This document shows positions 43,668 through 44,133 of a stretch of 64,000 nucleotides of DNA, one piece after another. The notes below the pieces were generated by a model that was not told the origin of the DNA, searched no databases, and saw only the letters and a list, made by a program, of their open reading frames with translations. The stretch lies in the NCBI RefSeq assembly GCF_009914755.1, contig NC_060930.1; one strand, 5' to 3'. Source of the stretch: the human T2T-CHM13v2.0 reference genome, Homo sapiens. Made by a program: the position numbers and the translations under genes. Within the stretch, counting starts at the first letter, position 1, and each line of letters starts with the position of its first letter.

Positions 43668-43873
43668 AGGAGATCGAGATCATTCTGGCCAACATGGTGA
43701 AACTCCGTCTCTACTGAAAATACAAAAATTAGGCGGGCACAGTGGCTTGTGCCTGTAGTCCCAGCTACTCGGGAGGCTGAGGCAGGAGAATGGCTTGAAC
43801 CCAGGAGGTGGAGGTTGTAGTGAGCCGAGATCACACCACTGCACTCCAGCCTGGTGACAGAGCAAGACTCCAT
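43668..43873 (+). mobile_element. AluSc-like, 3' part; last bases and poly(A) absent
   Basis: gagatcgagatcattctggcc...cctggtgacagagcaagactccat; ends at the antisense AG acceptor position. Confidence 0.93.
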
Positions 43874-44133
43874 CCTGAAACGATGTTGTAGTTGAGAGCA
43901 TGATGGTCTTTTGGGACAGGAGGAACAAGAGGTTCTGGTTGCCACTCTTCAATCAGTTCTTCTTTTTCCTTGACTGTAAGGTCAGATCTTTCTTGTAATT
44001 TGTAAGTCTTAGAGAAAAGAAGTCTGATTATCCAGAGTATCAGAATCCCTTCCAAAATAAGATGGTAAGCAGGAGCCTCGTAAAGCGCCTGTACCATCTC
44101 CACCAGAACCCACTGCTCCGTGGCAGTCGCCAT
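43831..44133 (-). CDS. Intact 100-aa chimeric ORF: SPTLC1 aa 1-87 plus 13 Alu-derived aa
   Basis: Kozak actATGG, open to TGA inside the antisense Alu; no promoter evident. Confidence 0.35.

What the first reader, a model, noticed from the sequence alone, without database searches (positions are those of the whole stretch)
43860..43890. Fossil splice junction: SPTLC1 exon 3 joined to an antisense Alu acceptor
Seen on the - strand: ...AACATCGTTTCAGG|ATGGAGTCTTGCTC..., with exactly 260 nt from the ATG (44133) to the junction (43874). Known (recalled): SPTLC1 exon 3 ends at c.260, and antisense Alu right arms are exonised at TTTTTGAG|A(C/T)GGAG. The missing poly(T)+GAG is just what splicing would remove. 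This is strong evidence that everything to the left was on the same RNA, and it records an aberrant SPTLC1 isoform that existed in the germline.
Basis: partly seen in the sequence, partly recalled or inferred. Interest (0 to 1): 0.75.

Follow-up and report, generated by a model that had tools for sequence, protein, structure and literature searches.

The report
Retrocopy of an Alu-spliced SPTLC1 isoform
This stretch of chromosome 6 is a reverse-transcribed copy of an old SPTLC1 transcript in which exon 3 was spliced into an Alu inside intron 3 and the RNA ended early; it is one of nine such copies, a tidy but fairly ordinary kind of genomic fossil.

Summary
On the - strand, the SPTLC1 5'UTR and c.1-260 (44151..43874) abut an antisense Alu at 43874|43873.

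**Splice in the parent gene.** In SPTLC1 on chr9 of the same genome, exon 3 ends at c.260 followed by GTAAAT. An antisense Alu 2,270 nt into intron 3 offers T20-GAG|ACGGAG. Canonical GT..AG splicing gives exactly the observed join.

**Colinearity.** Everything from 43873 to 40110 is colinear with intron 3:
- the rest of the Alu;
- an antisense SVA2-type VNTR element inserted in that Alu;
- an antisense UPF0607/POM121-like retrogene;
- an intronic ATTAAA followed by an A12 run.

**Nine copies.** The genome holds nine such full-length retrocopies with the same junction. Seven have a clear target-site duplication (TSD), one a weak displaced candidate, and the window copy none. Their 5' ends differ and two use a different cleavage site. 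The tree is star-like, at 2.9-4.2% from the parent. No canonical SPTLC1 retrocopy carrying exons 1-3 was found.

**Verdict.** This is a new member of a known kind, a processed pseudogene preserving an alternative isoform. Two curiosities stand out: the burst of nine copies, and the human UPF0607 copies spreading as antisense passengers.

The parts
44134..44151 (-). SPTLC1 5'UTR, last 18 nt (GGAAGGAAGCGGCTAACT); 5' end of the retrocopy
   Evidence: Identical to the bases just upstream of the ATG in the chr9 gene. Other copies start 15 to 39 nt upstream of the ATG.
44077..44133 (-). SPTLC1 exon 1 coding part, c.1-57
   Evidence: In the gene, exon 1 ends TACGAG followed by GTGGGC.
43969..44076 (-). 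SPTLC1 exon 2, c.58-165; intron 1 and intron 2 are absent
   Evidence: 108 nt; flanked by AG and GTACG in the gene.
43874..43968 (-). SPTLC1 exon 3, c.166-260
   Evidence: 95 nt; the gene reads TTTCAGG|GTAAAT.
43873..43874 (-). Fossil splice junction: exon 3 donor joined to an antisense-Alu acceptor
   Evidence: The parent gene has GT after c.260 and T20-GAG before the first Alu base used. 9 of 9 copies share the join.
43669..43873 (-). Antisense Alu, its 3' (right-arm) part; start of the alternative terminal exon
   Evidence: colinear with SPTLC1 intron 3 (C9:104272956 downwards).
43566..43668 (+). SVA2-type element: about 96 nt non-VNTR 3' sequence with ATTAAA, then A7 (43662-43668); antisense to the SPTLC1 RNA
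   Evidence: at least 156 candidate sites genome-wide, 40 scored, and 29 of them outside this family begin at the T/A run; 4 of 4 fetched copies have the same unique end plus an A run.
42840..43563 (+). VNTR of the SVA2-type element, about 18 units of 40 bp
   Evidence: TRF: period 40, 17.9 copies; period 80, 9.0 copies. The length varies from 37 to 1,206 bp among copies.
42742..42825 (-). Antisense Alu, its 5' part. This is the other half of the Alu that the SVA2-type element split, with a duplication of about 12 bp
   Evidence: GATCTCGATCTCC at one side, GTCTCAATCTCT at the other.
40110..42741 (-). Unique SPTLC1 intron-3 sequence, the rest of the terminal exon
   Evidence: 95.6% identity and K2P 4.2% to C9:104269282-104272007 over 2,723 compared sites.
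41747..42770 (+). UPF0607 / POM121-family retrogene remnant (LOC100129616), carried antisense inside the retrocopy; the ORF left here is 41856..42770, 304 aa
   Evidence: ORF; PF15229 POM121, E 1.3e-21; a 416-aa ORF in 5 of 9 copies.
40122..40127 (-). Poly(A) signal ATTAAA
   Evidence: the same hexamer is at the homologous place in the gene's intron 3.
40098..40109 (-). A12 run: 2 templated A (GTTAA) plus a 10-nt poly(A) tail; 3' end of the retrocopy
   Evidence: The gene continues GTTAACTTCTGTC, whereas the window continues with unrelated sequence.

Best explanation
Window 44151..40098 (- strand, about 4.05 kb) is one L1-mediated retrocopy of an alternative, prematurely terminated SPTLC1 transcript.

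- **Shown:** in the parent pre-mRNA the exon 3 donor (CAGG|GTAAAT) was joined to a cryptic acceptor at the 3' end of an antisense Alu (T20-GAG|ACGGAG), 2,270 nt into intron 3.
- **Shown by colinearity:** no further donor was used. The RNA ran on through the Alu, an antisense SVA2-type VNTR element sitting inside that Alu, and about 2.6 kb of unique intron that contains an antisense UPF0607/POM121-like retrogene.
- **Shown:** it was cleaved and polyadenylated after an intronic ATTAAA, about 3.7 kb past the acceptor in today's gene.
- **Inferred from poly(A) tails, TSDs and dispersed sites:** the polyadenylated RNA was reverse-transcribed into the genome by the L1 machinery at least nine times. 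This happened within a short period, at roughly the great-ape or hominoid stem.
- **Consequence:** RefSeq's SPTLC1P2 and LOC100129616 are two pieces of this single insertion, on opposite strands.
For: **Exon boundaries and splice sites.** Exon boundaries were read from the same genome. A search with 44151..43874 hits the chr9 gene in three pieces, plus nine contiguous copies and one exon-3-only copy; 13 of 13 hits are accounted for. The donor GT and the acceptor T20-GAG sit at exactly the joined bases.

**Colinearity.** Window 43874..42970 and 43482..41335 align to the gene's intron 3 downstream of the acceptor. The whole 2,730-nt post-VNTR part aligns to C9 at 95.6%.

**Poly(A) site.** The same ATTAAA lies in the gene.

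**Retrotransposition hallmarks.**
- 9 of 9 copies carry the same join and end at the same site with an A-rich tail.
- TSDs of 17, 16, about 14, 15, 17, 21 and about 11 bp directly flank 7 copies. The values for the chr16 copy (about 14 bp) and the chr6:64.37 Mb copy (about 11 bp) were read by eye. For those two copies the aligner returned other, weaker pairs.
- The chr2 copy has a 10-bp candidate displaced by 46 nt.

**Independent transcripts of the parental locus.** 5' ends fall at four different places within the genuine SPTLC1 5'UTR. Two copies (chr13 and chr6:64.37 Mb) were cleaved 4 and 8 nt further downstream and carry the parental bases CTTC and CTTCTGTC.

**Tree.** Internal branches are at most 0.0024 with 9-77% support, terminal branches are 0.015-0.026, and the parent's own branch is 0.016.

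**Literature.** Antisense Alus offer a strong polypyrimidine tract and are the usual source of Alu exons (Schwartz 2009, PMC2639721, passages).
Against: - The window's own copy has no convincing TSD. The best local alignment of its flanks is weak (score 17), and its 5' flank is unique in the genome. For this copy, L1 endonuclease-dependent insertion is inferred from its eight siblings.
- No RNA data were available, so present-day use of this splice and poly(A) site is unknown.
- No other primate genome could be searched. The dating rests on paralogue distances and on recalled divergence figures.
- For the seven copies sharing one cleavage site, the data cannot formally exclude that some were copied from an earlier retrocopy rather than from the gene.
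Confidence: 0.93

Rival explanations
1. A self-propagating composite family: one early retrocopy (SPTLC1 exons 1-3, Alu, VNTR, 3' part) became a source element and gave rise to the other copies. The model is the SVA F1 elements that carry MAST2 exon 1.
For: - Nine copies of one minor isoform stand against none of the canonical mRNA with exons 1-3.
- All nine are full length.
- Seven share one cleavage site.
- The RNA contains an antisense Alu next to a VNTR, which is loosely SVA-like.
Against: - The tree is a star with no supported retrocopy-only clade.
- Two copies carry parental genomic bases beyond the common cleavage site, and three carry a longer genuine 5'UTR. A daughter of a shorter retrocopy could not have these.
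- The non-SPTLC1 bases upstream of the window copy and of the chr2 copy match nowhere else in the genome, so there is no sign of 5' transduction.
- The VNTR is antisense, and the element's 3' end is an intronic poly(A) site, not that of a retrotransposon.
Confidence: 0.08
2. DNA-level (segmental) duplication of a single original retrocopy to nine places.
For: The parent region itself has been duplicated as DNA. There is a copy of exon 3 plus intron 3 at C9:94.577-94.585 Mb and an older paralogue at C9:100.01 Mb.
Against: Each retrocopy has its own flanks, its own TSD, its own tail length and its own 5' end. Homology stops at the 5' end and at the poly(A) run in 9 of 9 copies.
Confidence: 0.01
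3. The join was made by template switching of reverse transcriptase, or by trans-splicing between an SPTLC1 mRNA and an unrelated Alu-VNTR RNA.
For: None beyond the bare juxtaposition of a coding fragment and repeats.
Against: Both partners lie in cis, in order and orientation, 2,270 nt apart in one intron. The removed piece starts with GT and ends with AG. An identical join in 9 independent insertions is not expected from sporadic template switches.
Confidence: 0.01

Closest known systems
Processed pseudogenes that preserve alternative splice isoforms ('genomic fossils' of the transcriptome; Shemesh et al. 2006 PNAS, recalled, not seen) and partially processed retrocopies (Baertsch 2008, as cited in Casola & Betran 2017, PMC5470649, passages)
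   Same: An intronless copy of the upstream exons, poly(A) tail, TSDs and dispersed sites. The copy records a splice event and a poly(A) site that are not part of the canonical mRNA.
   Different: Nine full-length copies of one minor isoform, and none found of the canonical mRNA with exons 1-3. About 93% of the retrocopy is intron-derived sequence.
Alu exonisation from the antisense right arm (Schwartz et al. 2009, PMC2639721, passages; Lev-Maor et al. 2003, recalled)
   Same: The Alu is antisense to the gene. The poly(T) acts as the polypyrimidine tract, and the first AG after it (GAG|ACGGAG) is the acceptor.
   Different: There is no Alu-internal donor and no cassette exon. The Alu opens a 3.7-kb alternative terminal exon that ends at an intronic poly(A) site.
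Exon trapping / 5' transduction by SVA (the MAST2-SVA F1 group; Hancks 2009 and Damert 2009, recalled; 5'-transducing variants are mentioned in Raiz 2012, PMC3287187, passages)
   Same: Upstream host exons are spliced onto an antisense-Alu acceptor that lies next to a VNTR, and the chimeric RNA is then retrotransposed several times.
   Different: The VNTR element here (SVA2-type) is antisense. The 3' end is a host intronic poly(A) site. There is no hexamer or SINE-R module. The tree gives no sign that the copies themselves became sources.
SVA2 elements (Lupan 2015, PMC4432496; Raiz 2012, PMC3287187; passages)
   Same: The internal repeat consists of 40-bp units fused to a short non-SVA 3' sequence with an A run and a TSD. 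This matches the published description. The unit length matches the reported 40/39-bp ancestral units.
   Different: It is only a passenger here, transcribed antisense as part of an SPTLC1 intron. Identity with the Repbase SVA2 consensus could not be tested.
UPF0607 / NPAP1 / POM121-related retrogenes (Neumann et al. 2014, PMC3942032, abstract and passages)
   Same: The + strand ORF at 41856..42770 is POM121-family and is annotated UPF0607-like.
   Different: That paper treats UPF0607 copies as gene duplicates or retrogenes and does not mention SPTLC1 (0 occurrences). Here all nine copies at 95% identity or more lie antisense inside SPTLC1-isoform retrocopies, and they evolve without codon-position bias.

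Membership tests
L1-mediated processed pseudogene (retrocopy) | Parental introns precisely absent | tested here: met
   Introns 1 and 2 are absent, and 2,270 nt of intron 3 is removed at GT..AG.
L1-mediated processed pseudogene (retrocopy) | Poly(A) tail directly after a poly(A) signal, where homology to the parent ends | tested here: met
   ATTAAA at 40127-40122 and A12 at 40109-40098. The parent continues CTTCTGTC instead.
L1-mediated processed pseudogene (retrocopy) | Target-site duplication flanking the insertion | tested here: inconclusive
   No clear TSD was found for the window copy. Seven sibling copies have TSDs of about 11-21 bp directly at their ends. Two of these were read by eye, where the aligner returned other pairs. 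One further copy has a displaced 10-bp candidate.
Alu exonisation (antisense right arm) | Alu antisense to the host gene, with the acceptor AG just after the poly(T) | tested here: met
   T20-GAG|ACGGAGTCTTGC in intron 3 of the gene.
Alu exonisation (antisense right arm) | Alu-internal 5' splice site giving an internal cassette exon | tested here: not met
   The retrocopies run on colinearly with the intron for about 3.7 kb to a poly(A) site.
SVA-type exon trapping (5'-transducing VNTR composite) | VNTR composite in sense orientation supplying the 3' end and poly(A) signal of the chimeric RNA | tested here: not met
   The VNTR element's own A run and ATTAAA are on the opposite strand. The RNA ends 2.7 kb further on, in unique intron.
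SVA-type exon trapping (5'-transducing VNTR composite) | Chimeric copies act as source elements (subfamily structure) | tested here: not met
   Star tree with no supported retrocopy clade; parental bases at variable ends.
SVA2 | VNTR of about 40-bp units fused to a short non-SVA 3' sequence, poly(A), TSD | tested here: met
   against the descriptions in PMC3287187 and PMC4432496.
SVA2 | Sequence match to the Repbase SVA2 consensus | not testable with these tools
   No repeat library is at hand. The name is assigned from the published description only.
POM121 family (UPF0607 group) | Match to Pfam PF15229 above the gathering score | tested here: met
   77.9 bits against a cut-off of 27, E 1.3e-21.

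The most novel reading that the evidence does not exclude
The exon 1-3 / antisense-Alu / antisense-SVA2 / intron RNA was not just any transcript but an unusually good L1 substrate. It would then be a short-lived, SVA-like proto-retrotransposon born in SPTLC1 intron 3 at about the time SVA arose.

**In favour:**
- nine full-length 4-kb copies in one burst;
- no young 5'-truncated copy among the hits;
- no canonical SPTLC1 retrocopy with exons 1-3.

As a by-product, this burst created most of the human 'UPF0607 gene family', as promoterless antisense passengers. A published statistical link between 3'UTR-embedded Alus and pseudogene formation (Farre 2016, PMC5199112, abstract) fits the idea.

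**Status of the two parts.** The hitch-hiking part is shown directly here for the nine copies at 95% identity or more. The preferential-mobilisation part is conjecture.
Probability: 0.2. Interest if true: 0.6.

Novelty: new member of a known kind. Interest (0 to 1): 0.4.

Why it matters
- **Annotation.** It turns two unrelated-looking RefSeq pseudogenes on opposite strands (SPTLC1P2 and LOC100129616), and the unannotated Alu and VNTR between them, into one 4-kb insertion with a known parent and a known RNA structure.
- **A testable isoform.** It documents an SPTLC1 isoform (exons 1-3 plus an Alu-initiated terminal exon; predicted 122 aa, of which 86 are the N-terminal transmembrane part). Its splice and poly(A) signals are still intact in the human gene, so it can be looked for in RNA data.
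- **The UPF0607 copies.** It gives a concrete mechanism for how the primate UPF0607 copies multiplied in human: antisense hitch-hiking inside SPTLC1 retrocopies. It also shows that they carry no sign of coding constraint. This bears on whether those 'putative proteins' should be kept in protein catalogues.
- **Limit.** None of this changes how retrotransposition is understood.

Tried and rejected
- **Template switching, trans-splicing, DNA duplication.** Rejected.
- **SVA-type exon trapping.** Considered because of the Alu-VNTR order. Rejected as a family assignment once the short unique sequence next to the VNTR proved to be the poly(A)-bearing 3' end of a dispersed element on the opposite strand.
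- **5' transduction.** This was tested as an explanation for the missing or displaced TSD of the window copy and the chr2 copy. Both upstream stretches match only themselves in the genome, so the idea has no support and the TSD of the window copy stays unexplained.
- **Search for canonical SPTLC1 retrocopies lacking exons 1-3.** A PF00155 scan of the genome gave 54 candidates, of which 9 were scored. The 7 regions that hold those 9 matches were fetched and compared with 95.4 kb of the SPTLC1 locus. Only repeat matches appeared, and no SPTLC1 exon matched. This is a weak negative. The scan scores only the best candidates, and I did not establish that the fetched 95 kb holds all downstream exons.
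- **Purifying selection on the antisense UPF0607 ORF.** Not seen. Over 11 sequences the counts were 247 non-synonymous, 69 synonymous and 4 stop changes, and the codon positions took 119:120:92 changes.
- **Literature.**
  - SPTLC1+SVA+VNTR found 1 paper, a congress abstract book, not read.
  - UPF0607 found 3 papers.
  - SPTLC1P1-P5 found 11 papers, seen as a listing only; by their titles they are omics or association studies.
  - SPTLC1 with retrocopy terms was uninformative: 496 papers held at least 2 of the 6 terms, and the 15 listed all have 0 occurrences of SPTLC1.
  - I found no paper that links SPTLC1 to these copies or to UPF0607. Subscription journals and unseen supplements (for example supplementary table S2 of PMC3942032) may hold it.

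Full report
**What is in the window**

Read on the - strand, the region contains the following, in order:
- 18 nt of SPTLC1 5'UTR (44151-44134);
- the SPTLC1 coding sequence c.1-260 with no introns (44133-43874);
- an antisense Alu right-arm portion (43873-43669);
- a T7 run and about 96 nt of unique sequence (43668-43566);
- a 40-bp VNTR (43563-42840; TRF period 40, 17.9 copies);
- the antisense 5' part of an Alu (42825-42742);
- about 2.6 kb of unique sequence (42741-40110);
- ATTAAA at 40127-40122 and an A12 run (40109-40098).

The first 86 codons match human SPTLC1 residues 1-86 in 85 of 86 positions. The count of 260 nt from the ATG to the join is correct.

**Is c.260 an exon end, and is there a cis partner?**

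The window's own genome (T2T, chr6) can be searched. The 278-nt SPTLC1 part gave 13 hits:
- the window;
- eight other contiguous copies at 95-98% identity;
- the chr9 gene in three pieces (query 1-76, 74-184 and 182-278);
- one extra copy of the third piece only.

From the fetched gene I read the boundaries directly:
- exon 1 ends TACGAG|GTGGGC (c.57);
- exon 2 is 108 nt (c.58-165);
- exon 3 is 95 nt (c.166-260) and ends TTTCAGG|GTAAAT.

Downstream of exon 3, 2,270 nt away, the intron reads ...TCTTAC-T20-GAG|ACGGAGTCTTGCTTTGTCACCAGGCTGGAGTGCAGTGG. This is an antisense Alu 3' end. Removing the stretch from GT to AG gives TTTCAGG|ACGGAGTC, which is the join seen in the copies. The window has ATGG there, a CpG decay.

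**Was everything to the left on the same RNA?**

Yes.
- Window 43874..42970 and 43482..41335 align to the gene's intron 3 just below the acceptor.
- The 308 nt before the VNTR and the 2,730 nt after it align end to end with the parent at about 95.5%.
- In the gene the homologous place reads ATTAAAAGGTAAGAAGTTAACTTCTGTC.... In the window the sequence after GTTAA is an A run followed by unrelated DNA.

The RNA was therefore an intronically polyadenylated isoform with a terminal exon of about 3.7 kb. From today's gene it would encode 86 SPTLC1 residues plus 36 Alu-derived ones.

**Nine independent insertions**

All nine copies share the join and the poly(A) site. They differ in the ways that independent retrotransposition predicts.

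- **Tails.** Each copy has its own tail.
- **TSDs.**
  - Clear and directly at the ends: chr10 17 bp, chr1 16 bp with one mismatch, chr8 15 bp, chr9:28 Mb 17 bp, chr13 21 bp with three mismatches.
  - Read by eye, because the aligner returned other, weaker pairs: chr16 about 14 bp with two mismatches, and chr6:64 Mb about 11 bp.
  - The chr2 copy has only a 10-bp candidate, 46 nt upstream of its start.
  - The window copy has none that convinces.
- **5' ends.** They lie at about -39 (chr13, chr6:64 Mb), -25 (chr8), -18 (window, chr16) and about -15 (chr10, chr1, chr2, chr9:28 Mb). All fall within the genuine 5'UTR as read from the gene.
- **Cleavage site.** The chr13 and chr6:64 Mb copies were cleaved 4 and 8 nt further downstream and carry the parental CTTC and CTTCTGTC. 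They must therefore come from a locus with the genomic downstream sequence.
- **VNTR length.** It ranges from 37 bp (chr8, essentially lost) to 1,206 bp. The parent has 640 bp and the window 726 bp.

**Timing and source**

- K2P distances over about 2.7 kb are 2.9-4.2% between each copy and the parent, and 2.9-4.8% among copies.
- The maximum-likelihood tree is a star. Internal branches are at most 0.0024 with 9-77% support, terminal branches are 0.015-0.026, and the parent's branch is 0.016.
- This indicates a burst from one source state. I see no retrocopy-only clade.
- From recalled neutral divergences (human-orangutan about 3.4%), the burst falls somewhere around the great-ape or hominoid stem. 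This is an inference, not tested with other primates.
- A 3'-end search found 11 loci at 95% or more: the nine copies, the gene, and a DNA duplicate. There are therefore no young 5'-truncated copies among the hits.
- One search found no canonical retrocopy containing exons 1-3.

**Related loci**

- C9:94.577-94.585 Mb is a genomic duplicate of exon 3 plus intron 3. It is 94% identical, with the splice sites intact.
- C9:100.01 Mb is an older genomic paralogue of the Alu/VNTR/UPF0607 cassette, without exon 3. It is about 89% identical, and homology runs past the poly(A) site.
- C8:36.59 Mb is an older, 5'-truncated, internally deleted retrocopy that ends at the same ATTAAA site with an A-rich tail (about 88% identical). 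That site was therefore used earlier as well.

**The VNTR**

The roughly 103 nt next to the VNTR, including the T run, has at least 156 candidate sites in the genome. Of the 40 scored, 29 lie outside this family and start at the T run.

In 4 of 4 fetched examples, the same unique sequence with ATTAAA is followed by an A run on the opposite strand. It is preceded by VNTR-type sequence of varying length. TRF arrays were found in 2 of the 4, and the other two are cut down to about 20-25 nt. One example has a clear 16-bp TSD.

[quoted passage not shown] The name could not be checked against a consensus.

In the SPTLC1 intron this element sits inside the Alu with a duplication of about 12 bp, and it is antisense to the gene. 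For this reason, and because the RNA's 3' end is a host intronic site, I do not file the family under SVA-type exon trapping, although the resemblance is real.

**The other annotated pseudogene**

LOC100129616 (UPF0607-like, + strand) lies wholly inside the retrocopy.
- Its ORF is POM121-family (PF15229, E 1.3e-21).
- The homologous 416-aa ORF is intact in 5 of 9 copies, is 407 aa in one, and is broken in the window (304 aa), in two other copies, in the parent (303 aa) and in the DNA duplicate.
- Changes from the majority sequence total 247 non-synonymous, 69 synonymous and 4 stops. Codon positions took 119:120:92 changes, and the rate is no lower than outside the ORF. There is thus no sign of constraint.
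- Neumann et al. 2014 (PMC3942032; abstract and passages) describe UPF0607 as a primate-specific POM121/NPAP1-related retrogene group and do not mention SPTLC1.
- The data here show that the nine human copies at 95% or more were spread antisense, as cargo of an SPTLC1 transcript.

**Assessment**

The kind is known: a processed pseudogene that fossilises an alternative isoform, here an Alu-initiated, intronically polyadenylated one.

The unusual points are:
- the number of copies (nine);
- their completeness (all full length);
- the absence of canonical copies with exons 1-3;
- the hitch-hiking of a named 'protein family'.

Why this RNA was copied so often is open. High germline expression at the time, or a cis feature such as the embedded Alu (compare PMC5199112, abstract), are both possible and remain untested.

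**Limits**

- No RNA-seq data and no other primate genomes were available, and there was no repeat library.
- The TSD of the window copy is unresolved.
- The literature negatives rest on the searches named under Tried and rejected.

Noticed in passing
window 41747..42770 (+): LOC100129616 (UPF0607-like, POM121 family) is an antisense passenger of the SPTLC1 retrocopy. The 416-aa ORF is intact in 5 of 9 sibling copies but evolves neutrally (247 non-synonymous to 69 synonymous changes). The parent copy in SPTLC1 intron 3 is itself broken (303 aa).
   Followed up: yes
window 42840..43668 (+): SVA2-type element (40-bp VNTR, about 96 nt unique 3' end, A7) inserted into an Alu with a duplication of about 12 bp. 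Its unique end has at least 156 candidate sites genome-wide.
   Followed up: partly
L009+L013 (G000:C9:94573000-94587000): A DNA-level duplicate of SPTLC1 exon 3 plus intron 3, about 94% identical, with the donor GT and the Alu acceptor intact. Exon 2 is not included. It diverged at about the same time as the retrocopy burst (K2P 3.6% to the parent).
   Followed up: partly
L014 (G000:C8:36592000-36601000), about 4828-7392: An older retrocopy, about 88% identical to the parent. It is 5'-truncated within the VNTR and internally deleted, and it ends at the same intronic ATTAAA site with an A-rich tail. That poly(A) site was therefore in use well before the burst.
   Followed up: partly
L015 (G000:C9:100007000-100016500): An older genomic paralogue (about 89%) of the Alu/VNTR/UPF0607 cassette without SPTLC1 exon 3. 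It carries a 498-aa UPF0607-type ORF, and homology continues 1.2 kb past the poly(A) site. More distant relatives lie on chr10 (three loci, 77%), chr9 and chr15.
   Followed up: no
L004 (G000:C8:27285800-27295700), about 2093-2131: The chr8 sibling copy has lost the whole VNTR (37 bp left between the flanking segments). Other copies range from 603 to 1,206 bp, which shows large length changes in this array.
   Followed up: no
window 44152..44240 (-) and 40040..40097 (-): The flanks of the window copy show no convincing target-site duplication. The 89 nt upstream are unique in the genome. The chr2 sibling likewise has 46 nt of unexplained sequence between its candidate TSD and the SPTLC1 start.
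   Followed up: partly
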